From positions 352,001-416,000 of IMG/VR virus record IMGVR_UViG_3300045988_170943: DNA of 64,000 bases; one strand, given 5' to 3'. Shown one piece after another: positions 75 to 26,619 of this stretch (positions within the stretch are counted from its first letter, which is position 1; every line of letters starts with the position of its first letter). The translations under genes and the position numbers were made by a program. The notes below the pieces were generated by a model. The model ran no database searches and was not told the origin of the DNA. It saw only the letters and a list, made by a program, of their open reading frames with translations. The DNA is from a virus.

Positions 75-159
75 GCTCAGGTGGCGGAATGGTATACGCG
101 CTGCCTTGAGGTGGCAGTGGGCTGTAAGGTCCATGCAGGTTCGACTCCTGTCCTGAGCA
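75..159 (+). tRNA. tRNA-Leu (anticodon GAG), type II with long variable arm
   Basis: Acceptor gctcagg/cctgagc, anticodon stem ctgcc/ggcag with loop ttGAGgt, 17-nt variable arm, T-arm gcagg-ttcgact-cctgt. Confidence 0.7.
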
Positions 160-165
160 CTTGAC

Positions 166-330
166 AAACCCCAGAAGTGTAGACTTTCTCTTACTTCTTG
201 TGGAATAGGAGAGGACCAGGGTTCGAGTCCCTGGCTGAGAAGGCGAGTCCTTCCAGTGGTGTATCGGGTTAGCACGTTAACGTCAGAGGGGGCCGCTTTT
301 TCTCTGGGGTTTGTCACACAACTCGCCTGA
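166..330 (+). ncRNA. candidate Y RNA (YrlA-like tRNA-like RNA) upstream of Ro60 gene
   Basis: Perfect T-arm mimic (caggg-ttcgagt-ccctg) flanked by an acceptor-like helix (cttctt.../...gagaag), but no D-arm or anticodon arm. A long-range helix pairs ccccaga (172-178) with tctgggg (~303-311). It lies between the tRNA array and the TROVE/vWA (Ro60) gene. Confidence 0.3.
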
Positions 331-604
331 ATCCTCTCACCATTATGTGATCATGTGGTGACACAAGTGAGGAGGGGGCACACTCACACTACGGAACATA
401 TGCTTCCTTGGTGTGGGTGTTTCTGGTTTCGTCGCCAGTTCAGGTACGAAGGCGCAGATGCGTAGTGGTAGGTTACTTCACATTGATTTACACTCAATCC
501 CTAAAACCTGCTGCGGCTGGTTCTCTGCGTCTATAATTTACGAAACGGACTCAACACCAGCCTGGGTCATGAAGCCATCATAGTCTCAAGGAAGGGTGAG
601 CAAA

Positions 605-2197
605 ATGGCAAGGATGAACACGAAGAGCGCTGCTGTAAAGAACAGTGCGTCTTCTCCAGTCAAGACCCGTAAGAGCGGTAAGCGAGTCGCTACGGCCGAA
701 GGTGGGGCCGGGTGGAAGCGCACCGCTAAGAGTGAGTTATTTCTTGCTGCGGTCACAGGCCTGAATGAGGACACGTTCTATGAGTCCGCTGAGAACCGTC
801 AAGAGCGTGTCGCCAAGTTGGTTGCGAAGGTCGCTAAGAATGGCGAGTGGATTCTCGGCCTAGTCGGGTGGCTCCGTCGTGACGCTGGTCTCAGGGCTGT
901 TCCTGTAATGGTTGCTGCTGAGGCTGCCCACTACCGTCTCAGCAAGGGCATGAACGGGCTCAACCGTGAGATTGTTCGTGCATCCATTGGACGCCTGGAT
1001 GAGACCAGTGAGTTCATTGCCTACTGGCTGGAGCGTTTCGGCCGCAAGATCCCGTCCGCTGTCAAGCGCGGTATCAGTGACGCCCTGAACGACCTACTCA
1101 ACGAGGGCTCATACCTGAAGTGGAGCGGTCGCGCATCCCGTGGATCCGTGTCCCTGGGCGACGTCATCAACCTCGTGCACGCTAAGCCGAAGGACAACCA
1201 CCAGTCAGCGCTCTACCAGGCCGTCCTTGACCGCCAGTACGGGGCAAAGGAGGACCTGACTGCACTGCCTGTCATGAAAGCCCGCCAGGACTTTCTGTCT
1301 ATGCCGGTAGACAAGCAGATCAAGGTCCTGTCTGGTAAGAAGGCTGACAGTGTGATCAAGTCAGCGCGCCTCACGCACGAGGTTATCTCCGGGTCTATTG
1401 GCAAGATTCCGGCCGAGGTATGGGAGAACCTGATCCCGCACATGGGGTACACCGCTTTGCGCATGAACCTCAGGCGAATCAGCGAATCCGGTGTCAGCCT
1501 TGACGTAATCGACGAGATCAACAAGGTACTCCGAGACAAGGAGAAGGTCGCCCACGCCAAGGTCATGCCAATTGACTTCCTTCGTGCCTACAGGAATGCT
1601 CCACTAGACTTCCATGCCGCACTCCAACGAGGCGCAAACGGGGTCCTGGACAACATTCCAGCACTCAAGGGACGCACACTAGTCCTACTGGATCGATCAG
1701 GCTCAATGGGAGACCACCTGTCCTCCAAGAGCCAGATCACCAGACAGGACGCAGCCAATGTCTTTGCGGCAGCCCTGGCGCTACGCTGCGAGGATGTTGA
1801 CGTGGTTGCTTTTGACAACGACAGCCAGAGGATCAGCATCACCTCCAAGGATTTGTTGAAGGTTGTTGAGAAGGATATGCCGGATTCTCGTGGTGGTACC
1901 TACACCGCACGAGCATTCAGGGAGCACTACAACAACCACGACAGGGTTATCGTCCTCACAGACGAGCAGACATCCATGTCCTCATACTGGACAGGTGGAG
2001 AGAGTCTTGACGGGGCTCTAGATGCTGGACTGAAGAAGGGTGCAACAGTGTTCACCTGGAACCTTGCTGGGTACACTGCCGCACACAACCAGTCCAAGGA
2101 TCGTCGCTGGACCTTTGGTGGGCTTACTGACAAGGGGTTCCAGATGATCCCGCTACTGGAGAGAGGTGTGTCTCAGTCCTGGCCCTGGGAGAACTGA
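605..2197 (+). CDS. rsr: Ro60/Rsr ortholog (TROVE domain plus C-terminal vWA domain with MIDAS motif DRSGSMGD)
   Basis: The translation has a TROVE-like N-terminal region and a vWA domain (LVLLDRSGSMGD ... VIVLTDEQT). RBS aggaagg lies 8 nt upstream of the ATG at 605. The ORF track starts at GTG 596. Confidence 0.8.
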   Translation: MARMNTKSAAVKNSASSPVKTRKSGKRVATAEGGAGWKRTAKSELFLAAVTGLNEDTFYESAENRQERVAKLVAKVAKNGEWILGLVGWLRRDAGLRAVPVMVAAEAAHYRLSKGMNGLNREIVRASIGRLDETSEFIAYWLERFGRKIPSAVKRGISDALNDLLNEGSYLKWSGRASRGSVSLGDVINLVHAKPKDNHQSALYQAVLDRQYGAKEDLTALPVMKARQDFLSMPVDKQIKVLSGKKADSVIKSARLTHEVISGSIGKIPAEVWENLIPHMGYTALRMNLRRISESGVSLDVIDEINKVLRDKEKVAHAKVMPIDFLRAYRNAPLDFHAALQRGANGVLDNIPALKGRTLVLLDRSGSMGDHLSSKSQITRQDAANVFAAALALRCEDVDVVAFDNDSQRISITSKDLLKVVEKDMPDSRGGTYTARAFREHYNNHDRVIVLTDEQTSMSSYWTGGESLDGALDAGLKKGATVFTWNLAGYTAAHNQSKDRRWTFGGLTDKGFQMIPLLERGVSQSWPWEN

Positions 2198-2350
2198 GAC
2201 AGAAACAGAACGTGACTGCTATCACATCACTGTCAGTTGACATCAGTCTTCTGCTGGTGGTAGAGTAGTCATCATCAAGCCGGTCGGAGAGAACAGGATG
2301 AGGCCAGGCGGGGAACCGAGCAACCCCTTGTTCTCTCTGACCGGTATCAA

Positions 2351-3260: not shown

Positions 3261-3332
3261 GCCTATGTAGTTCAATGGAAGAATACCACTCTCCTAAAGT
3301 GGGGGTTAAGGGTTCGAGTCCCTTCATAGGCA
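3261..3332 (+). tRNA. tRNA-Arg (anticodon CCU)
   Basis: Acceptor gcctatg/cataggc, anticodon stem ccact/agtgg with loop ctCCTaa, T-arm aaggg-ttcgagt-ccctt. Confidence 0.7.
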
Positions 3333-3382
3333 CTATCTTGACACTGAAACTCTGTGTAGTTTTGTGTCAGGATAAACACGAT

Positions 3383-3454
3383 GCCCCTGTAACTCAATGG
3401 ATAGAGTAGCAGCCTTCTAATCTGCATGTTGTCAGTTCGAGTCTGACCAGGGGT
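3383..3454 (+). tRNA. tRNA-Arg (anticodon UCU)
   Basis: Acceptor gcccctg/caggggt, D-arm actcaatggatagag, anticodon stem gcagc/tctgc (4 bp plus a mismatch) with loop ctTCTaa, T-arm gtcag-ttcgagt-ctgac. Confidence 0.6.
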
Positions 3455-3488
3455 ACTATTCAGAATGTGAGAGGTTCTGAAAATTCAT

Positions 3489-3581
3489 GCCCCCATAGCT
3501 CAGTTGGTTAGAGCAGCGGCCTTATACACCGTTTCGTGCCTGATATGCACAAGGTCCTGGGTTCGAGTCCCAGTGGGGGTA
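3489..3581 (+). tRNA. atypical 93-nt tRNA-like gene with ~20-nt insertion between D-arm and anticodon arm (possible anticodon GAU, Ile)
   Basis: Acceptor gccccca/tgggggt, canonical D-arm tagctcagttggttagagc and T-arm ctggg-ttcgagt-cccag. An extra gcggccttatacaccgtttc precedes the hairpin gtgc-ctGATat-gcac. Confidence 0.4.
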
Positions 3582-3624: not shown

Positions 3625-4176
3625 ATGTCTGACGACCTGACTGCTGAGCAACGCAAGTCTGATCTCAATGTAACCCTGAACGACCTGGTGGCTTCGTATC
3701 ACGGGCGAGTGTTTCGCGCCTCTGACCCTGTGCGCCTGTTGATCAGCCTGATCAAGAATGTTGGTGACTTCGCTGACTGTTGGGAAGAGTCTTCTCGTAA
3801 CCTTGATGACTATTCGCCACGGATTCAGTCCGCGTGCAAGAACCTGGTATACACATGCCTGAACATTACTGAGGCTGACGTTGAGATCGAGTACGACCTG
3901 CACAGTATCGTTGACTCGATTATGGACAAGTCTGACTTCTGGTGGCAAGAAGACATCATGGATGAGTACGAGTATGATCTTGCCATGCCCGCTGTTGACA
4001 GGGTGCAGAGCATGCTTGCATCAGTGGGTGATCTTGCGTCTGTGTGGCCGCACTGCGATCCGCACCCCCGCCCGGATGGCTATGACCTGATTGAGAGAAA
4101 GATGGACGCCCTGGAGTTCGTCATCTATCAGGCTGCATCTGCCCTGGTTGCTGTGCAGCGTGGGGCCCTGGGGTAG
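3625..4176 (+). CDS. hypothetical acidic protein
   Basis: 183-aa ORF with RBS aaggag 6 nt upstream. No recognisable motifs. Confidence 0.5.
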   Translation: MSDDLTAEQRKSDLNVTLNDLVASYHGRVFRASDPVRLLISLIKNVGDFADCWEESSRNLDDYSPRIQSACKNLVYTCLNITEADVEIEYDLHSIVDSIMDKSDFWWQEDIMDEYEYDLAMPAVDRVQSMLASVGDLASVWPHCDPHPRPDGYDLIERKMDALEFVIYQAASALVAVQRGALG

Positions 4177-4262
4177 CCCATGGAGCCTGAGCGAGTATAG
4201 GCCCTGACAACCTAGGTTACCTCCCACGTGCTCTGTTGTGATAAGCGCCACTTGATGCAGTG

Positions 4263-4292
4263 TTGACACAGCGGCCGCGCCTGTCATATACT
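4263..4292 (+). promoter_or_regulatory. sigma70-like promoter (TTGACA-18-TATACT) next to GTGAC..GTCAC palindromes
   Basis: ttgaca at 4263-4268 and tatact at 4287-4292. Inverted repeat gtgacactt-N9-aagtgtcac at 4347-4373 precedes tRNAs 4432 and 4597. Confidence 0.35.
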
Positions 4293-4431
4293 GTAGGTGA
4301 GTAAGGGGCCGGTAAGGACACAGTTACGATTGAACCTTTCAGGTCGCCTCCCACTGTGTGACACTTGATGCCATTAAGTGTCACCAAACCTCTTGTGGAT
4401 GACACTTAAACACTTAAGGTGCCACCACGTT

Positions 4432-8206: not shown

Positions 8207-8582
8207 GGGGCAGACAGGTATTCGACATGCGATGCTTGCTTGTGTTGAGTGCGAGCCACCCTTGAACCATGGGTGTCAAACAGGTTCAAACCAACAGTTG
8301 CCAACTCTGACAACTTCGCTCTCGCCGCCTGAGAGCCGCCTGAATCCCACAAGGTAAGGCCCTGCCGGGACTCAATTCAGGTGTTATCGCTAGGGGCTAT
8401 GGTCAAGCGCCTGTCACCTGGGTGCGGGCCGAGAAACTAAACAGGTGACAACCAGGGTTGTGGTAGTCATGCAGGACCATTCCAAACCTTACATGGTTGT
8501 AAAACACTAACGGATCCTGCTACGCTCGTAGAACTTAAAACAGGCACATTCTTGGACGAGGGTTCGATTCCCTCCTGCTCCA
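8207..8582 (+). ncRNA. ssrA: tmRNA (ssrA), tag peptide (A)ANSDNFALAA
   Basis: The 5' end ggggcagacaggtattcgac matches the tmRNA 5' consensus. It pairs with the 3' acceptor ctgctcc. The 3' tRNA-like domain is ggacgagggttcgattccctcctgctcca. An internal tag reading frame gcc aac tct gac aac ttc gct ctc gcc gcc tga runs 8300-8332. Confidence 0.75.
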
Positions 8583-8789
8583 CTATCCAACCGGGGTGCC
8601 GCCAGTGAGTGATGAAACTGGCGGCACCCCGGCTTCCTGCATATGCTCATGCCAATACCACATTAGGTGGCTACCCCTATCCCAGTGTGTCCATACGTTC
8701 TATCTCCTGTAGCAGTCGATACACTATGAGGTAGCACCTGCCATAACCGATGCGGTACCCCATCACGGCGCCCTACCCTGAGGAGAATC

Positions 8790-10100: not shown

Positions 10101-11597
10101 ATGCCAGCAGTCAAGGATCAGTTCGTCTCCCTGCACATGCACTCCGACTACTCCCTACTGGACGGCTACGCCAAGCCAGGAGAGTACATCAACAGGGCTA
10201 TCGAACTTGGGCAGCCAGCCATTGGGCTCACAGATCACGGGAACCTTCATGGCATCAAGCAGTTCATTGACCAAACCAGGGACGCTGGCCTCACCCCAGT
10301 ACCCGGTTCCGAGTTCTACATGGCCCCCATCAGTGATGACGGACCATACCCCAAGCATCCTGTCTACTACGGTGAGGGTGGCCGCAAGAACCCTGAGCAT
10401 GACGTGTCCGCTAACGGGACCTACCTGCACCTAACTGTCTGGGCTTACAATGACGCCGGTTTGAGTAACCTGAAGCGCCTGTCCACGCTCGCCTATGCCC
10501 CAGAACGCTACTACCGGAAACCACGCATCGGGTTTGACGACCTGGCGGACCACTCAGACGGACTCATCGTATCCACGGGCTGCCCCTCATCAGAGATCAG
10601 CACCAGGTTACTCATGGGACAGGAGCAAGCAGCCTATGAGTACGCTGGGCGCATGAAGGAAGTGTTCAAGGACCAACTGTTCATGGAGATCATGAACCAT
10701 AACATGAGCATCGACCTTGAACGCAAACTACTGCCTCAGCAGATGCGTCTAGCGAAACGACTCAACCTCCCCCTACTGGCAACCAACGACTGCCACTACG
10801 CCAACTCCGGGGACGCCCAGGGACACAGTGAGATGCTTTGCATCCAGTCAAAGTCCCTCATGAGTGACAAGACCTATGATCAGGGCGGTAAACGGTTCGC
10901 GTTCAACGGCGACCAGTACTACATGAAGTCCGGGGCACAGATGGCGGCACTGTTCCCTGAAGATGACTATCCCGGCGCCCTGTCGAACACGCTACTGATC
11001 GCAGAGATGGCCTCAGACATTAGGATGGTGTTCGACCCCCACCTGAGGCCCGTCCCGTTTGTCCCTGAGGGCACCACGGTAGAGAAGCATCTCCAGCAGA
11101 TGATCAACGACGGATACAAGGCCAAGTATGTGAACCGTGACTACCCAAGCGTGGAGGAGCGCAAACGTGTCCTGAGTGAAGCAAAACGACGCATTCGTGA
11201 AGAGTGGGAGGTCATCTACTCGTCCGCGTTTGACGGGTACATGTTGGTCGTGGAGGACTATCTGAGATATATCCGGGAGAATTACTCGGTGCGAGGCGAG
11301 AACGGGGAGATCCTTGCATCTCCGTTGGGGCCGGGCCGCGGCAGTGTCGGCGGGTGCATCATCGCATACCTGCTGGGCATCTCTGAGATCGACCCTATTG
11401 AGTATGATCTCCTGTTCGAGCGTTTCCTGTCTCCTGGGCGTGGCGCTGTCTGTCGGGTCACTTATGATGACGGCACTACCGAGGACCTTGTGGTGTCCGA
11501 AACCAGAACTGTGCTGGGTGATGATGGTCAGGAGGTAGGCAGATACATTCACCAGATCAACATTGGGGATAAGGTTGTCATTGAAGAGGAGCACTAA
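10101..11597 (+). CDS. dnaE: DNA polymerase III alpha (DnaE)-like N-terminal fragment: PHP domain, truncated before the catalytic PDxDxDF motif, ending in a Cys-initiated Hint-like tail
   Basis: N-terminus VSLHMHSDYSLLDG is the PHP signature. NDCHYAN, GPGRGSVGG and LLFERFLSPGR align to DnaE. Where E. coli DnaE continues VSMPDFDVDF, this ORF reads CRVTYDDGTTEDLVV... (48 aa) and then stops, adjacent to tnpB. Confidence 0.7.
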   Translation: MPAVKDQFVSLHMHSDYSLLDGYAKPGEYINRAIELGQPAIGLTDHGNLHGIKQFIDQTRDAGLTPVPGSEFYMAPISDDGPYPKHPVYYGEGGRKNPEHDVSANGTYLHLTVWAYNDAGLSNLKRLSTLAYAPERYYRKPRIGFDDLADHSDGLIVSTGCPSSEISTRLLMGQEQAAYEYAGRMKEVFKDQLFMEIMNHNMSIDLERKLLPQQMRLAKRLNLPLLATNDCHYANSGDAQGHSEMLCIQSKSLMSDKTYDQGGKRFAFNGDQYYMKSGAQMAALFPEDDYPGALSNTLLIAEMASDIRMVFDPHLRPVPFVPEGTTVEKHLQQMINDGYKAKYVNRDYPSVEERKRVLSEAKRRIREEWEVIYSSAFDGYMLVVEDYLRYIRENYSVRGENGEILASPLGPGRGSVGGCIIAYLLGISEIDPIEYDLLFERFLSPGRGAVCRVTYDDGTTEDLVVSETRTVLGDDGQEVGRYIHQINIGDKVVIEEEH

Positions 11598-13300
11598 AAC
11601 CATCTGAGTACGTATGTGCCACTTCATCTGAACACCTCCCCCTACCTCCTGGAGCAACCGGACCCGTGACTTCTCACGTGTTATTGTGGTTACCATATAG
11701 GGTATGACTATTCCTTAGGATAAACCACATCTACTGTATTTGCAACAGATAGGTCCCTTGTTGGAATTGTCGTGCCGCTGGTTGTCTGAAACCACTCCCT
11801 GTGGTCCACCGCAGAAACCCTAGACTCTGCGGGGCACATCCTTACACTCACCTCCCTCGACTGAAAAGATGGGCGAGTGTGGGTCTTCTTCTGGTTCTGG
11901 GGTGCTTTAGGAGTAGGCCTGTTCTTCGTGCCAGGATGCCTCAGTGGCTTCACACGGCACTTGGATCTTCTGATGCGCTTGGTCTTTGTGGCGTGCCGTC
12001 TCCGTGTCTGGCACGCCTTCTTGACATTCACTCGCTGAGCGATGTTCGCCGCCGCGTTCAAGTCACGATGATGAGTGATGCCACAGGCCGTACAGCGCGG
12101 CTGAGAATAGTCCTGCATGTCCAGGTCAGACTGACACACATGACACCTTCGGGATGTGTGCGCGGCGTTGACCTTCAAGACGCGCCCGCCGTCAGCCTCA
12201 ACCATATCCCGAGTACGCCTGTGGACCTCGCCACGAAACCAGCGGCCGAACTTCATGGTGTTCTTGATGTGAGACAAGTCCTCAAAGGAGACGATGGCAT
12301 TGTCATAACGCCAGGCCGCGTCTGTGATCTCCTGAGCAACGAGGATGCTCAGTTCCTTACGCCGGTTAGACAAGTGACCCCTGTGTGATGCGGCCTCCTC
12401 AGGGCGGTTCTTCCTCTGCAAAGAGGAAACCTGAACCTGAGCCCTCTTAATCTTATTGTTCAAGGACCTGGCACGCTGCCCTAGAAGAGACTGATCAACA
12501 ACCTTTCTGCCCTTGGTATCCCAGACGACGTAAGTGGCCGGGTTAGTCACACCAACATCCACGCCAATAACATAGCGGCTAGAAAACTCGGGACGTCCAG
12601 GATTGGTCTTGCCATGAAAGCCAAACATCACGCGATTCTGATTATCGACCCATATGTCCGGCACGCCAGTCTCACAACCCTTTTCCAGTAATTGGGGTGG
12701 CGTTGGGAAGTGAAGAGTAGTCCATTGGCCTTGAACGACTAGATCCAGGATGATCTTGTCTTCCTGGACATGAATCCTTCTGTACTGGTTGTTTGTTGCA
12801 GAAAGAGAAAGGCGAGGTTGCAGGTCTTTTGGTTTAGAATCCTTGACTGTTCTCTTCCACCCGGCCGAAACATAACCATTATGCGTCCCGTTAGTGGCAT
12901 TGACTCGGGCGGCCCAGGATCTCAGTGTCGAGACCACTCGCTCACGAAACAGCATCTCCAACCGTGAGGCCCCACTCCTGAACCGATTCTTCACCTCACT
13001 GGGAAGAAACAGGCCCATACGCCTACCAGCCTCAGCGGGCTTGAACCTGTCGAAGTAGGTCACCAGGGCAAGATTCTGCTCAGTCAACTCCCGCAGAGCA
13101 TACTCGGCAACCAGTTCAGCATCCGCTCTGATGCCGTCCAGGACCTCATCAAGGTTCAGAGGATCACCAGTCTTACTGAACGCAGCATATGGTGTCCTTG
13201 GGTACGTACGCGACACAGTAGTTCTAGACACCTGGTGAGCCTCCCCCAAGAACTTGACTGGTTGATGGTATGCGTGTATTATAGCACAATATTAGTGGAG
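11550..13300 (-). mobile_element. IS200/IS605-family TnpB-only element (IS1341-like), approximate ends
   Basis: A 513-aa TnpB occupies almost the whole interval. An AT-rich promoter lies at 13250-13440. The predicted right end and omega-RNA region overlaps the 3' end of the DnaE fragment. Boundaries not resolved. Confidence 0.45.
11708..13249 (-). CDS. tnpB: TnpB (IS605 OrfB family, RuvC-like RNA-guided nuclease) with C-terminal zinc finger
   Basis: C-terminal CHVCQ...CTACGITHHRDLNAAANIA (RuvC-III plus Zn finger), preceded by the D...G.N and E motifs typical of TnpB. Confidence 0.8.
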   Translation of the reverse strand: MGEAHQVSRTTVSRTYPRTPYAAFSKTGDPLNLDEVLDGIRADAELVAEYALRELTEQNLALVTYFDRFKPAEAGRRMGLFLPSEVKNRFRSGASRLEMLFRERVVSTLRSWAARVNATNGTHNGYVSAGWKRTVKDSKPKDLQPRLSLSATNNQYRRIHVQEDKIILDLVVQGQWTTLHFPTPPQLLEKGCETGVPDIWVDNQNRVMFGFHGKTNPGRPEFSSRYVIGVDVGVTNPATYVVWDTKGRKVVDQSLLGQRARSLNNKIKRAQVQVSSLQRKNRPEEAASHRGHLSNRRKELSILVAQEITDAAWRYDNAIVSFEDLSHIKNTMKFGRWFRGEVHRRTRDMVEADGGRVLKVNAAHTSRRCHVCQSDLDMQDYSQPRCTACGITHHRDLNAAANIAQRVNVKKACQTRRRHATKTKRIRRSKCRVKPLRHPGTKNRPTPKAPQNQKKTHTRPSFQSREVSVRMCPAESRVSAVDHREWFQTTSGTTIPTRDLSVANTVDVVYPKE

Positions 13301-25089: not shown

Positions 25090-26619
25090 CTAGGTTGGAG
25101 ATCCTCTAGAATCTAGGGTTTCCCTCACCATCATCAGCGTCGCCTCGGTTTTTCTTTCCGAGGTACCAGTGTGTCCCTGGATTCCACTCAGGGCAGTGAC
25201 CGGTTTCGACTGTCGCGTAACAGTCGAACTTCGCTCTAGCGCCCTCTGGCGAAGCAGAGAACGCATTCTATCACGGTTTCTCGTGCTTGAGATAGCACGC
25301 AAGGCAATCTCTCTAGATGCCGAGATGTCACGATCCAGTGAGAAACCACAGGTAGTGCAGGTACCGACCCTACTCTTCGAGTTGTTCGATACCTTACCAC
25401 CGCAGCGAGAGCAGGTCTTTGAGGTGTTCTTGGCGCTCACCTTGGTTACTTTAATCCCGTAGCGCTTAGCAGTTTTCTCTATCCTGTGCTGTATCTCAGC
25501 ATGAGGCCACCTACCACCCAAAGCGTCAAGCCAGGACAGGTTCTCCAGAGACAGATGAGCATCGCTCTTATTAGCGATTTCCACTACCTGGCTGGCGATA
25601 CACTGACTGATCTCATGCTTTATCCTGGTAGCCTTAGCACCGACTCGCTTCGCCTCAGTCCTGAGAATCTGAGCACGCTGGGCTCGGTTGTATCTCTCAC
25701 AGAGGTCCGCTCGTTCGTACAGATGAGCAGATAAATCACGACGTTTCTTCTCTGCCCTAACTAGAGAACCGAGCCACCTCTTGTAACTAACGTAATACGG
25801 AGCAGACCTGTACTTAGCCTCAGGATCTATGACGGTAGTGACGAACGGCTCTACCTTACCCAGGTCAACGCCTACAATCTTGTTGGTGTCTCGCTGATGC
25901 ACCTTGCGCTCGATAGCGATGTCAAAGACAACCTGGCCCTTGTCGTTCAGTCTGATAGTTGGGCGACATACCTTACCATCACCAAAGCGTGACTCATTAT
26001 CTGGAAGTCTGAAGTAGAGTCTAGTAAGACCGTTACTTGGCGTCTTGACCTGAACGATGACACTCAACGGATCGCTGTCGTCTCGAACTGCCTTAGGTGC
26101 GAAGTAGGTGTCACACACAGCCAGGTTCAGTTTGGCGTTCACTCCAGGTAGAGACGCCTTCCTCTCGCCTTTGACGTGATAGCGCCTCAGGTGAGCGCGG
26201 ATCATTCCACTGGTCGGCTGCGGAGCATCAGGATAAGCGACCTTGTAGCAGGAGAGGATCTTTTCTGGCTTGGTCTCCTTAGGGTGAGTGTTCATTACCT
26301 GAAACAGGCCAACTGAGACAGCATAAGACTCTAGAGCGCCAACTATATTGGTGATCAGCATCTCATTCATGTTGTGCTTCTGAAACTCAAAGTCGTAACG
26401 ACTAAGGCGTTTACGACCCCAGGAGTTCAGAGAACCGGTCGGCCTGCCACCCCGTAGAACTTTCACTGCCAGGTCATGAAACTCTGAACCGGCAAGCACC
26501 TCCTGCTCAGCCTGAGCCATCCAAGCAACCATCTGAGCCAGATCAGCACTCACTGAGTCAGCGTCAACTCCATCGTCAGTGGTGAACCTGTGCCTAGTCA
26601 CAGCGTCATAGTACTTCAC
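25090..26619 (-). CDS. tnpB: TnpB (IS605 OrfB family) second, divergent copy
   Basis: VGVDLG (RuvC-I) and SKTCSRCGG...CTTCGFSLDRDISASREIALRA (RuvC-III plus zinc finger). Confidence 0.8.
   Translation of the reverse strand: MKYYDAVTRHRFTTDDGVDADSVSADLAQMVAWMAQAEQEVLAGSEFHDLAVKVLRGGRPTGSLNSWGRKRLSRYDFEFQKHNMNEMLITNIVGALESYAVSVGLFQVMNTHPKETKPEKILSCYKVAYPDAPQPTSGMIRAHLRRYHVKGERKASLPGVNAKLNLAVCDTYFAPKAVRDDSDPLSVIVQVKTPSNGLTRLYFRLPDNESRFGDGKVCRPTIRLNDKGQVVFDIAIERKVHQRDTNKIVGVDLGKVEPFVTTVIDPEAKYRSAPYYVSYKRWLGSLVRAEKKRRDLSAHLYERADLCERYNRAQRAQILRTEAKRVGAKATRIKHEISQCIASQVVEIANKSDAHLSLENLSWLDALGGRWPHAEIQHRIEKTAKRYGIKVTKVSAKNTSKTCSRCGGKVSNNSKSRVGTCTTCGFSLDRDISASREIALRAISSTRNRDRMRSLLRQRALERSSTVTRQSKPVTALSGIQGHTGTSERKTEATLMMVRETLDSRGSPT

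What the first reader, a model, noticed from the sequence alone, without database searches (positions are those of the whole stretch)
160..2197. Ro60/Rsr gene embedded in the tRNA array with a tRNA-like non-tRNA element upstream (candidate Y RNA)
A TROVE plus vWA protein (Ro60) is unusual cargo. Bacterial and phage Ro60 genes are typically accompanied by Y RNAs whose effector domain mimics tRNA. Immediately upstream (about 166-330) there is a perfect T-arm and acceptor-like helix with no D or anticodon arms, inside a larger helix. A further hairpin lies at 341-385, and a TATAAT box at 527-532.
Basis: partly seen in the sequence, partly recalled or inferred. Interest (0 to 1): 0.6.

Follow-up and report, generated by a model that had tools for sequence, protein, structure and literature searches.

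The report
Phage Ro60 with tRNA-like Y RNAs
A giant phage from human-associated metagenomes carries a Ro60 RNA-binding protein gene preceded by two small structured RNA genes, one a tRNA look-alike; they belong to the 'Y RNA' partners already known for bacterial and phage Ro60, so the pairing is real but expected, although the standard RNA database models miss it.

Summary
The core of the finding holds. Window 605-2197 encodes a Ro60 protein (TROVE plus vWA) inside a tRNA array.

Directly upstream, 162-316 is a conserved structured RNA. It has a 14-bp terminal stem, an internal loop, a second stem, and a permuted tRNA-like domain in the order extra hairpin, T arm, closed acceptor-like hairpin, D-like arm.

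Rfam's YrlA, Y_RNA and tRNA models find nothing there. However, a covariance model built only from distant Ro-adjacent elements in other phages hits 162-316 full length (58.6 bits, E=1.8e-11).

Both elements share a signature: AGAWGYGUAG, then UUACUUC, then YUUUUCUC at the 3' end. Combined with a T loop, this signature occurs in 34 IMG/VR stretches. At least 30 of these lie beside a Ro gene on the same strand.

The layout matches Mycobacterium smegmatis YrlA plus YrlB upstream of rsr. I therefore call these a new member of a known kind.

The 341-385 hairpin is weak and not conserved. The TATAAT box lies at 532-537, not 527-532.

A conserved mini SRP-like RNA at 2277-2350 is the most unusual thing noticed alongside.

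The parts
75..160 (+). tRNA-Leu(GAG). Its 3' end lies 1-2 nt before the first Y-like RNA, and no CCA is encoded.
   Evidence: ARAGORN; Rfam tRNA 54.8 bits; 3' flank read. The same abutment is seen in all 11 related contigs.
162..316 (+). Y RNA 1 (YrlA-type): terminal stem, internal loop, second stem and a permuted tRNA-like domain.
   Evidence: Model R1, built from distant phages only, gives 58.6 bits, E=1.8e-11, full length, at 165-313. In the window clade 96% of cells are paired and 12 pairs show double changes. RNAalifold result.
162..175 (+). 5' strand of terminal stem P1. It pairs with 303-316 (14 bp).
   Evidence: Read from sequence and structure evaluation. Four of 12 pairs show compensatory changes between the two clade subgroups (helix 1).
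173..182 (+). 5' signature AGAAGUGUAG. This is a variant of the family's GAUGCG(A/U)AG and is the inferred Ro-contact strand.
   Evidence: Pattern searches; aligned to the R1 consensus cGAUGCGaAGA.
191..197 (+). UUACUUC, a motif invariant across the family.
   Evidence: Invariant columns in A3.
194..214 (+). Extra ('variable-arm-like') hairpin, 6 bp.
   Evidence: Helix 3: 100% paired, 2 pairs with double changes.
216..234 (+). T arm with UUCGAGU loop.
   Evidence: T-loop matched by several models. Helix 4, with 2 compensatory pairs. Family T arm.
235..256 (+). Closed acceptor-like hairpin (8 bp with one bulged A, loop CGAGU).
   Evidence: Manual pairing checked. The equivalent 7-bp helix in the family has all 7 pairs covarying (helix 3).
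259..275 (+). D-like arm GUGU-AUCGGGUUA-GCAC.
   Evidence: helix 7. It aligns to the canonical GUAGCUCA..GAGC D arm of the family model.
277..287 (+). Conserved single-stranded UUAACGUCAGA following the D arm.
   Evidence: Invariant UAACGUCAGA in the clade. Distant relatives carry CUACGUCAG or CUACGU at the same place.
294..304 (+). 3' signature CGCUUUUUCUC, opposite the 5' signature.
   Evidence: Invariant in the clade. The same motif is seen in BRock-like phages. It matches the R1 consensus cuuuUUCUC.
303..316 (+). 3' strand of terminal stem P1.
   Evidence: As for 162-175.
325..379 (+). It is probably not a functional unit.
   Evidence: z=-1.7 in the window and z=-0.4 for the L003 counterpart. 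Sequence and length are not conserved.
450..532 (+). Y RNA 2 (YrlB-like). It has the same stem/internal-loop module (CAGAUGCGUAG at 455-465, UUACUUC at 473-479, GGCUGGUUCUC at 515-525) but no tRNA-like domain.
   Evidence: R1 gives 40.6 bits, E=1.8e-7, with both model ends matched, at 448-534. 99.6% of cells are paired against 35-51% in slid controls. Fold z=-3.2.
532..537 (+). TATAAT, immediately 3' of Y RNA 2. It is either a possible -10 (TANNNT is kept in relatives) or part of a U-rich tail.
548..568 (+). Small conserved hairpin in the leader of the Ro gene.
   Evidence: RNAalifold, 6 pairs.
605..2197 (+). Ro60 (Rsr) orthologue, 530 aa, with an AAGGAAGGG ribosome-binding site at 588-596.

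Best explanation
Window 162-316 and 450-532 are two Y RNA genes of the bacterial YrlA/YrlB type, and they serve the phage-encoded Ro60 protein (605-2197).

Proposed mechanism:
1. Both RNAs are transcribed with the tRNA array. Y RNA 1 starts 1-2 nt after tRNA-Leu(GAG), so the host tRNA 3'-end processing nuclease would set its 5' end.
2. Ro60 binds the module the two RNAs share. That module is a terminal helix closed by AGA/UCU, with the conserved internal loop 5'-(A/U)G(U/C)GUAG over 3'-CGCUUUUUC or GGCUGGUUC.
3. Y RNA 1 additionally presents a tRNA-shaped domain (T arm, closed acceptor stem, D arm, no anticodon arm). Y RNA 2 is a plain stem-loop.
4. By analogy with Deinococcus, Salmonella and Thermus phage phiLo, the RNAs gate Ro60's cavity and tether it to a host exoribonuclease such as PNPase, redirecting RNA surveillance or decay during infection.

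What is shown and what is inferred:
- Shown here: the Ro60 gene, the conserved structures, family membership, and the tight genomic linkage to Ro.
- Inferred: transcription, processing, Ro binding and the PNPase link.
For: 1. Ro60 identity: Pfam TROVE and vWA_Ro60; phiLo Ro60 structures at E=2.5e-32; MIDAS motif.
2. Conservation with covariation in 11 related contigs. For element 1, 96.1% of cells are paired against about 50% when partners are slid, 12 pairs have double changes, and 0-1 of 500 shuffles reach the observed values. For element 2, 99.6% are paired.
3. Architecture equals the Rfam YrlA consensus order: stem, loop, stem, T, acceptor hairpin, D, stem.
4. Model R1 was built from 17 Ro-adjacent elements of other phages. 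Where I measured it, their Ro proteins are at most about 40% identical to the window's. No window-clade sequence was used. R1 hits 165-313 at 58.6 bits, E=1.8e-11, and 448-534 at 40.6 bits, E=1.8e-7, both end to end. The family alignment itself has 19 of 23 pairs covarying.
5. Linkage to Ro:
- The three-part signature matches 34 stretches in all of IMG/VR. Of these, 29 have Ro on the same strand in the fetched DNA, and 28 lie 150-870 nt upstream of it. One more is on a contig already known to carry Ro.
- In bacterial genomes, 8 of 18 matches lie beside rsr, including in Thermomonospora catenispora.
6. Bridge to the curated family. Neville's copy of the signature is the 5' extension of a full-length Rfam YrlA match (44 bits). 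Other relatives score 31-52 bits.
7. Published precedents:
- M. smegmatis YrlA (about 147 nt) and YrlB are both upstream of rsr and cut from one precursor. The published primers show ..GAUGUGAG.. and ..UUACCACUUCUAAUGG.. in YrlA (PMC4201824).
- phiLo Ro60 binds two Y-like RNAs encoded upstream of its gene and forms complexes with host PNPase (PMC12135203).
Against: - There are no expression, end-mapping or binding data.
- Rfam YrlA and Y_RNA give no hit at E<=10.
- The published Rsr-contact motif GNCGAAN0-1G, with its CGAA core, is not present literally. The window has GUGUAG and GCGUAG.
- For the window's own sequence, the minimum-energy fold (-69.4 kcal/mol) differs from the family-consistent fold (-56.9) in the 3' half.
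- Two close relatives carry G instead of A at T-loop position 58.
- Element 2 has only two pairs with double changes, so its structure rests mainly on conservation and the model match.
- No PNPase, RtcB or other known partner was seen in the 64-kb window.
Confidence: 0.8

Rival explanations
1. The two elements are not free-standing Y RNAs. They are cis-acting parts of the Ro60 mRNA leader. Ro60 binds its own leader and autoregulates translation or stability, and the tRNA-like part only provides a processing site.
For: Element 2 ends only 72 nt before the Ro start codon. No clear terminator or promoter separates it from the gene. A conserved small hairpin (548-568) and the ribosome-binding site follow directly. 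All elements are on the same strand as Ro and almost always upstream of it.
Against: In Atuin-like phages the homologous elements lie downstream of Ro, packed between tRNA genes (L021 3897-4333; L156). A third copy in this clade lies about 3 kb upstream, beyond another gene. In M. smegmatis and phiLo the equivalent upstream RNAs are discrete Ro-bound species. In the 88% subgroup, a T-run after element 2 looks like a terminator tail.
Confidence: 0.12
2. Element 1 is a decayed or rearranged tRNA gene (pseudogene) left in the array, with no function of its own.
For: It lies in a tRNA array, has a perfect T arm, and sits next to a tRNA-Leu with a long variable arm.
Against: - Arm order is permuted (T, then acceptor, then D) and there is no anticodon arm.
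- ARAGORN and Rfam tRNA do not call it.
- All helices are kept by compensatory changes across the clade.
- It matches a family found beside Ro genes in unrelated phages and bacteria.
Confidence: 0.02
3. The tRNA-like RNA works independently of Ro60. It could be a substrate or decoy for tRNA-acting enzymes such as RNase P, the phage's nucleotidyltransferase, modification enzymes or host anticodon nucleases. On this view Ro is merely a neighbour.
For: A PolyA_pol-family (CCA-adding-like) nucleotidyltransferase gene lies just upstream of the array in the source contig. M. smegmatis YrlA is cut by RNase P and receives CCA. L111 and L153 carry the signature with no Ro gene in the fetched flank.
Against: The same stem/loop signature is shared with element 2, which has no tRNA-like domain. 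Its only constant neighbour across distant genomes is Ro. The nucleotidyltransferase is also explained by the 9 of 13 phage tRNAs that lack an encoded CCA.
Confidence: 0.06

Closest known systems
Mycobacterium smegmatis YrlA and YrlB (Chen et al. 2014, PMC4201824)
   Same: There are two RNAs upstream of the Ro60 gene on the same strand. The first is about 150 nt with a T arm, closed acceptor stem and D arm. The second is a shorter stem-loop between it and the gene. The 5' strand motif is related (published primers give GAUGUGAG ... UUACCACUUC, against the window's AGAAGUGUAG ... UUACUUC).
   Different: The host is a roughly 400-kb phage and the genes are embedded in a tRNA array. There is an extra hairpin between the second stem and the T arm, and a 9-nt conserved single strand after the D arm. 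The D arm is non-canonical. [quoted passage not shown]
Rfam RF02553 YrlA (Salmonella-type consensus)
   Same: Same order of elements: P1, AUGC-containing internal loop, P2, T arm, acceptor hairpin, D arm.
   Different: There is no hit at all for the window element. The variable region is a 21-nt hairpin instead of 4 nt. The CGAA core reads GUGUA or GCGUA.
Thermus phage phiLo Ro60 with Yrl1/Yrl2 (PMC12135203)
   Same: A phage-encoded Ro60 (E=2.5e-32 to the window protein) with two Y-like RNAs encoded upstream of it. Each has a 5'-3' stem flanking an internal bulge.
   Different: The phiLo RNAs were picked by a CGAA motif and are not described as tRNA-like. I made no sequence-level comparison of the RNAs.
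[quoted passage not shown] 2014)
   Same: Phage Ro60 plus an adjacent YrlA-like RNA, found by iterative covariance searches.
   Different: A different phage lineage. The window has no megablast match in 50,697 phage records, and the best Ro identity to any deposited phage is 39%.
Deinococcus radiodurans Yrn1/Yrn2 and metazoan Y RNAs
   Same: Terminal helix with a conserved bulge or loop bound by Ro60. More than one Y RNA per genome. In Deinococcus the RNA tethers Ro to PNPase.
   Different: Rfam Y_RNA gives no hit. By eye the 5' strand resembles human Y1/Y4, but this similarity is not above background in the window.

Membership tests
YrlA-type bacterial/phage Y RNA | Encoded next to a Ro60/Rsr gene | tested here: met
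   The element ends 289 nt upstream of the Ro start codon on the same strand. Its homologues are Ro-adjacent in at least 30 of 34 IMG/VR matches.
YrlA-type bacterial/phage Y RNA | 5' and 3' ends pair into a stem carrying the conserved Ro-contact motif GNCGAAN0-1G (CGAA core) | tested here: inconclusive
   The stem is present and covaries. The literal motif is absent: the window has AGAAGUGUAG and CAGAUGCGUAG. The family position alternates GCGAAG and GCGUAG, so this is a variant of the motif rather than a match.
YrlA-type bacterial/phage Y RNA | tRNA-like domain with T arm, closed acceptor-like stem and D arm, in that order, and no anticodon arm | tested here: met
   T arm 216-234, acceptor hairpin 235-256, D-like arm 259-275. 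Family helices covary.
YrlA-type bacterial/phage Y RNA | Score at or above the Rfam RF02553 gathering threshold (69 bits) | tested here: not met
   No match even at E<=10 on a 481-nt slice. Related phage and bacterial elements reach 31-52 bits.
YrlA-type bacterial/phage Y RNA | Significant match to a covariance model of independently chosen Ro-adjacent elements | tested here: met
   R1: 58.6 bits, E=1.8e-11, model positions 1-144.
YrlA-type bacterial/phage Y RNA | Stable RNA bound by Ro60, carrying tRNA-type modifications | not testable with these tools
   Requires RNA-seq or northern blots, Ro immunoprecipitation and modification mapping.
YrlB-like second Y RNA | Shorter stem-loop with the same Ro-contact module, lying between YrlA and the Ro gene | tested here: met
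   Window 450-532: R1 gives 40.6 bits with both ends matched and the tRNA-like block skipped. Structure. The class recurs in BRock, Neville, L016 and L019.
Ro60 / Rsr protein | TROVE domain followed by a vWA domain with a MIDAS motif | tested here: met
   Pfam TROVE 4e-9 and vWA_Ro60 1.8e-6, both above their cut-offs. DRSGS...GGT...TDE present. phiLo Ro60 9KOP at E=2.5e-32.
Ro60 / Rsr protein | Ring-shaped HEAT-repeat fold | not tested
   No structure prediction was run. This is inferred from sequence homology to a solved Ro60.
tRNA (gene or pseudogene) | Cloverleaf in the standard order with an anticodon arm | tested here: not met
   No ARAGORN call. No Rfam tRNA match at E<=10. The order of arms is permuted.
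Metazoan-type Y RNA (Rfam RF00019) | Match to the Y_RNA model | tested here: not met
   No hit at E<=10. Local alignment to human Y1/Y4 5' ends is not above background.

The most novel reading that the evidence does not exclude
Y RNA 1 is not only a Ro60 tether. Like M. smegmatis YrlA, it would be cut by RNase P in its acceptor loop. It would then be CCA-tailed by the phage's own nucleotidyltransferase, encoded just upstream of the array. The resulting two-piece, anticodon-less tRNA mimic, held by Ro60, would act as a decoy or sensor against host tRNA-targeting defences, or as quality control for the phage's own tRNA, tmRNA and SRP-like RNA island. The phage would then carry a self-contained 'RNA island' in which Ro60 and its Y RNAs are the surveillance arm.
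Probability: 0.1. Interest if true: 0.75.

Novelty: new member of a known kind. Interest (0 to 1): 0.4.

Why it matters
Ro60 with Y RNAs is a conserved RNA-surveillance particle whose role in phages is still unclear. The only phage example studied biochemically, in the literature I found, is Thermus phage phiLo in 2025.

This locus adds a lineage of roughly 200-420-kb phages from human-associated samples in which Ro60, two to three Y RNAs, a tRNA array, a tmRNA and a nucleotidyltransferase are clustered.

In practical terms:
- The curated Rfam models miss these RNAs entirely.
- A simple three-part signature, or a small covariance model, recovers them. It also reveals tandem arrays of two to six Y RNA genes beside Ro in many actinophages, some apparently mis-annotated as tRNAs.
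- This gives a ready set of candidates for experiments on what phage Ro60 does.

Tried and rejected
- Rfam YrlA and Y_RNA on the element found nothing at E<=10. These models are not sensitive enough here. This does not count as evidence of absence.
- The Rfam YrlA 26-bit hit at 3424-3517 and the R1 30-bit hit at 3290-3433 are adjacent-tRNA artefacts. Both are local matches to the T/D part only.
- A megablast search against deposited phages found no match.
- The 5' strand of element 2 looks like human Y1/Y4 by eye. The human sequences were verified in papers. However, a local-alignment scan of the whole window gives equal scores at unrelated places, so I do not claim it.
- The 325-379 hairpin as a functional element: weak and not conserved.
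- TATAAT as a sigma-70 promoter: no acceptable -35, not conserved as such, and not called by the scan. A bare TANNNT -10 cannot be excluded.
- The other UUACUUC sites in the window (38753 and 63798) lie in coding sequence and are chance matches.
- The two-part motif alone is too loose for a whole-collection scan. 90 of its 120 hits had no Ro gene in the fetched flank and most look like chance matches. Adding the T loop made it specific.
- No supplementary sequence files were held for Chen et al. 2014, so I could not align directly to their phage YrlA set.
Full report
**What is in the window**

The first 8.6 kb of the window is a tRNA island. It holds 13 tRNA genes and a tmRNA, all on the + strand (Rfam agrees).

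Between tRNA-Leu(GAG) (75-160) and tRNA-Leu(UAG) (2351-2434) lies one long ORF. It runs 605-2197 from its ATG, with an AAGGAAGGG ribosome-binding site 8 nt upstream.
- Its product matches Pfam TROVE (4e-9) and the Ro60-specific vWA domain (1.8e-6), both above the curated cut-offs.
- It matches the solved Ro60 of Thermus phage phiLo (9KOP, 9L5Y) at E=2.5e-32.
- It keeps a DRSGS MIDAS motif.
- Deposited phages share at most 39% identity with it (Streptomyces phage BRock, Arthrobacter phage Atuin, Gordonia phages). All of these are annotated 'Ro-like RNA binding protein'.
- There is no nucleotide-level match to any deposited phage.
- The exact protein is found on a 418,686-bp metagenomic contig. 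Close relatives (87-94% identity) sit on 92-398-kb IMG/VR contigs. The source is therefore a jumbo phage.

**Element 1 (162-316)**

- a second stem (182-191 with 285-294);
- an extra hairpin (194-214);
- a D-like arm (259-275, GUGU-AUCGGGUUA-GCAC, with the GG typical of D loops);
- a conserved single strand, UUAACGUCAGA (277-287).

The order is: stem, stem, extra hairpin, T arm, closed acceptor stem, D arm, stem. This is a circularly permuted tRNA body without an anticodon arm, and it is the layout of the Rfam YrlA consensus.

**Conservation and covariation in the clade**

All 11 related contigs carry the element at the same place, 1-3 nt after the tRNA-Leu.

The two subgroups (94% and 87-88% Ro identity) differ so much here that blastn does not link them. 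Even so, every helix is maintained.
- RNAalifold predicts 45 pairs, 11 with compensatory double changes.
- In my count, 96.1% of cells pair, against 40-53% when partners are slid by 1-3 columns.
- 12 pairs have double changes, and 0-1 of 500 shuffles reach the observed values.

One caveat applies. For the window's own sequence, the minimum-energy fold (-69.4 kcal/mol) differs in the 3' half from the family-consistent fold (-56.9). In the 88% subgroup the minimum-energy fold is itself the T / acceptor / D structure.

**The suggested Rfam test fails, but a family-specific test succeeds**

Rfam YrlA, Y_RNA and tRNA give nothing at 140-620 even at E<=10. In more distant Ro-carrying phages, however, sub-threshold YrlA hits (31-47 bits against a gathering score of 69) lie beside the Ro gene.

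While reading those loci I found a shared signature: GAUGCG(A/U)AG, then 3-25 nt, then (G)UUACUUC. On the 3' side there is a U-rich ..UUUUCU(A/C).. followed by the complement of the 5' flank.
- The window's element 1 carries the variant AGAAGUGUAG ... UUACUUC ... CGCUUUUUCUC.
- In Gordonia phage Neville, one copy of the signature is the 5' extension of a full-length Rfam YrlA match. This ties the signature to the curated family.

Association with Ro was tested three ways:
- The two-part motif alone is too loose.
- With a T loop added, the pattern matches only 34 stretches in all of IMG/VR. Of these, 29 have Ro on the same strand within the fetched DNA. In 28 the pattern lies 150-870 nt upstream, and in one it lies downstream. 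One further stretch is on a contig already known to carry Ro. Two have too little flank to judge, and two have no Ro nearby.
- In 185,579 bacterial and archaeal species genomes the pattern matches 18 stretches. Eight lie beside a detectable Ro gene, including in the cultured actinomycete Thermomonospora catenispora. The module is therefore not phage-specific.

I then aligned 17 such elements from other phages. Where I measured it, their Ro proteins are at most about 40% identical to the window's, and no sequence from the window's clade was included.
- In that MAFFT alignment the terminal stem, T arm, acceptor hairpin and D arm are 92.9% paired.
- 19 of 23 pairs show double changes, and no shuffle out of 500 reaches any of the measures.
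- The covariance model built from it (R1) hits window 165-313 at 58.6 bits, E=1.8e-11, over the whole model.
- R1 also hits window 448-534 at 40.6 bits, E=1.8e-7.
- The next hit (30.5 bits) is a local match across two adjacent tRNAs.

**Element 2 (450-532)**

- Lower stem: 450-458 with 524-532.
- 5' motif: the same CAGAUGCGUAG (455-465).
- Upper stem: 465-473 with 506-514.
- UUACUUC lies at the start of the apical region (473-479).
- 3' motif: GGCUGGUUCUC (515-525).
- There is no tRNA-like block.
- It is 99.6% paired across nine relatives, against 35-51% in slid controls. Only two pairs show double changes.

Short elements of the same class, GUUACUUCA..AUUG.., recur in BRock, Neville and several IMG/VR phages.

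A third such element lies about 3 kb upstream of Ro in the source lineage, beyond the window's 5' end.

The hairpin spans about 325-379, is weak (z=-1.7), and has no conserved counterpart.

TATAAT is at 532-537, directly after element 2. Relatives have TAAAAT or T-rich TANNNT there, and the promoter scan does not call it. It may be a minimal -10 for the Ro mRNA, or part of a U-rich tail. I cannot decide between these.

**Context**

Y RNA 1 begins 1-2 nt after tRNA-Leu. In other phages the Y-like elements are packed head to tail with each other and with tRNAs.
- BRock has four, from 1420 to 1913, starting at the end of tRNA-Asn.
- Atuin has three that exactly fill the gap between two tRNAs.

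Nine of the 13 phage tRNAs lack an encoded CCA. In the source contig, the gene just upstream of the array is a PolyA_pol-family nucleotidyltransferase.

I saw no PNPase, RtcB or RNA ligase among the larger ORFs of the window.

**How it most likely works**

Shown here:
- a Ro60 gene;
- two conserved structured RNAs sharing one stem/internal-loop module;
- membership of a family whose only constant neighbour is Ro60.

Inferred from published work:
- In M. smegmatis, YrlA (about 147 nt, tRNA-like) and YrlB are both encoded upstream of rsr, cut from one precursor and bound by Rsr. YrlA is cleaved by RNase P and receives CCA (PMC4201824).
- In Deinococcus and Salmonella, Y RNA tethers Rsr to PNPase (same paper).
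- phiLo Ro60 binds two upstream-encoded Y-like RNAs and forms complexes with host PNPase (PMC12135203).

I therefore propose the following. The array transcript is processed by host tRNA-processing nucleases. Phage Ro60 binds the shared module of both RNAs. The particle then redirects a host exoribonuclease or RNA quality control during infection. The role of the tRNA-like domain is unknown even in the model systems.

**Comparison and novelty**

The locus is a member of the YrlA/YrlB kind. It passes on adjacency, architecture and an independent covariance model. It fails the Rfam threshold and the literal GNCGAA motif. Its peculiarities are:
- an extra hairpin in place of the 4-nt variable region;
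- a divergent D arm;
- a conserved 9-11-nt strand after the D arm;
- residence in a jumbo-phage tRNA island.

Y-like RNAs next to phage Ro60 have been reported before, in mycobacteriophages, CcrColossus, Bacillus phage G and phiLo. I therefore rate this as a new member of a known kind, of moderate interest.

**Side observation**

Just downstream of Ro, 2277-2350 is a 74-nt hairpin scoring 37.1 bits against Bacteria_small_SRP (threshold 40), with the whole model matched. It keeps the domain IV signature GGCCAGG-CGG-GGAA-CCG-AGCAACC.
- It is almost invariant in eight relatives. The changes are confined to the GNRA loop (GGAA, GAAA, GUAA) and one C-to-U that keeps pairing.
- It is preceded by a conserved TTGACA-18-TAGAGT promoter-like site.
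- It abuts the next tRNA.
- It occurs only in this clade's 11 contigs in IMG/VR.
- I found no paper describing a phage-encoded SRP RNA gene.

Noticed in passing
window 2277-2350 (+), with promoter-like site 2237-2266: A 74-nt hairpin matches Bacteria_small_SRP end to end at 37.1 bits (threshold 40). It keeps the Ffh-binding domain IV motifs and a GNRA loop.
- It is nearly invariant in 8 relatives; only the GNRA loop varies (GGAA, GAAA, GUAA).
- It is preceded by a conserved TTGACA-18-TAGAGT site (TATAGT in some relatives).
- It ends exactly at the 5' end of tRNA-Leu(UAG).
- It is found only in this clade's 11 IMG/VR contigs and has no match in deposited phages.
- I found no literature on phage-encoded SRP RNA.
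This may be a phage-encoded mini 4.5S RNA.
   Followed up: partly
L178 710-2170 (+); same contig as the window's Ro gene, just beyond the window's 5' end: A PolyA_pol head-domain nucleotidyltransferase (CCA-adding-enzyme-like, Pfam 1.7e-19) is encoded immediately upstream of tRNA-Gly and tRNA-Leu. Nine of the 13 tRNAs in the window lack an encoded CCA.
   Followed up: partly
L127 5888-5969 (-); L068 2018-2101 (+); also L047 at 3036 and L142, L147, L149: A third short Y-like element (GAGAUGYGUAG...GUUACUUCA...UUUUCUCU) lies about 3 kb upstream of Ro, beyond the nucleotidyltransferase gene. This is outside the window.
   Followed up: partly
L020 (BRock) 1420-1913; L021 (Atuin) 3897-4333; L134 3468-4146; L145 9989-10816: Many actinophage Ro loci carry tandem arrays of three to six Y-like RNA genes. 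They are packed head to tail with 0-10 nt spacers and abut tRNA genes. None is annotated in the deposited records I looked at.
   Followed up: partly
L024 (Streptomyces phage Frankenweenie) 1745-1835; L023 (Gordonia phage VanLee) 1704-1775: The features annotated as a 91-nt tRNA-Pro and as tRNA-Arg(tct) overlap strong matches to the Y RNA model (57.9 and 79.8 bits). They lie just upstream of Ro and are probably YrlA-type RNAs mis-annotated as tRNAs.
   Followed up: no
L111 907-1046; L153 (four elements): Full Y-like elements with canonical D arms occur here with no detectable Ro gene in the fetched flank. They are possible exceptions to the Ro linkage, or the Ro gene is too divergent or too distant to detect.
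   Followed up: no
L160, L162, L165, L166, L170, L172 (Acetatifactor / Lachnospiraceae MAGs): The three-part signature also occurs in Firmicutes MAGs. Only two of these show weak (24-27% identity) Ro-like matches nearby.
   Followed up: no
window 10101-13249: The DNA polymerase III alpha ORF (PHP domain plus the start of the NTPase domain, 498 aa) stops short. It is followed on the opposite strand by a TnpB/Cas12f-like ORF (11708-13249). A second TnpB-like ORF lies at 25090-26619. This may be a transposon-interrupted or split polymerase gene.
   Followed up: no
window 8207-8585: A phage-encoded tmRNA (Rfam 106 bits; tag peptide ANSDNFALAA) lies in the same RNA island as the tRNAs, the Y RNAs and the SRP-like RNA.
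   Followed up: no
L020 (BRock) 4079-4242: A sub-threshold Rfam manA RNA match (49.7 bits against 55.2) lies between two tRNA-Lys genes downstream of Ro. It overlaps an annotated 'collagen triple helix' CDS.
   Followed up: no
window 3424-3517 and 3290-3433: Weak YrlA-like matches here (Rfam 26 bits; R1 30.5 bits) span two neighbouring tRNA-Arg/Ile genes. These are the dimeric-tRNA artefact that Chen et al. warn about, not Y RNAs.
   Followed up: yes
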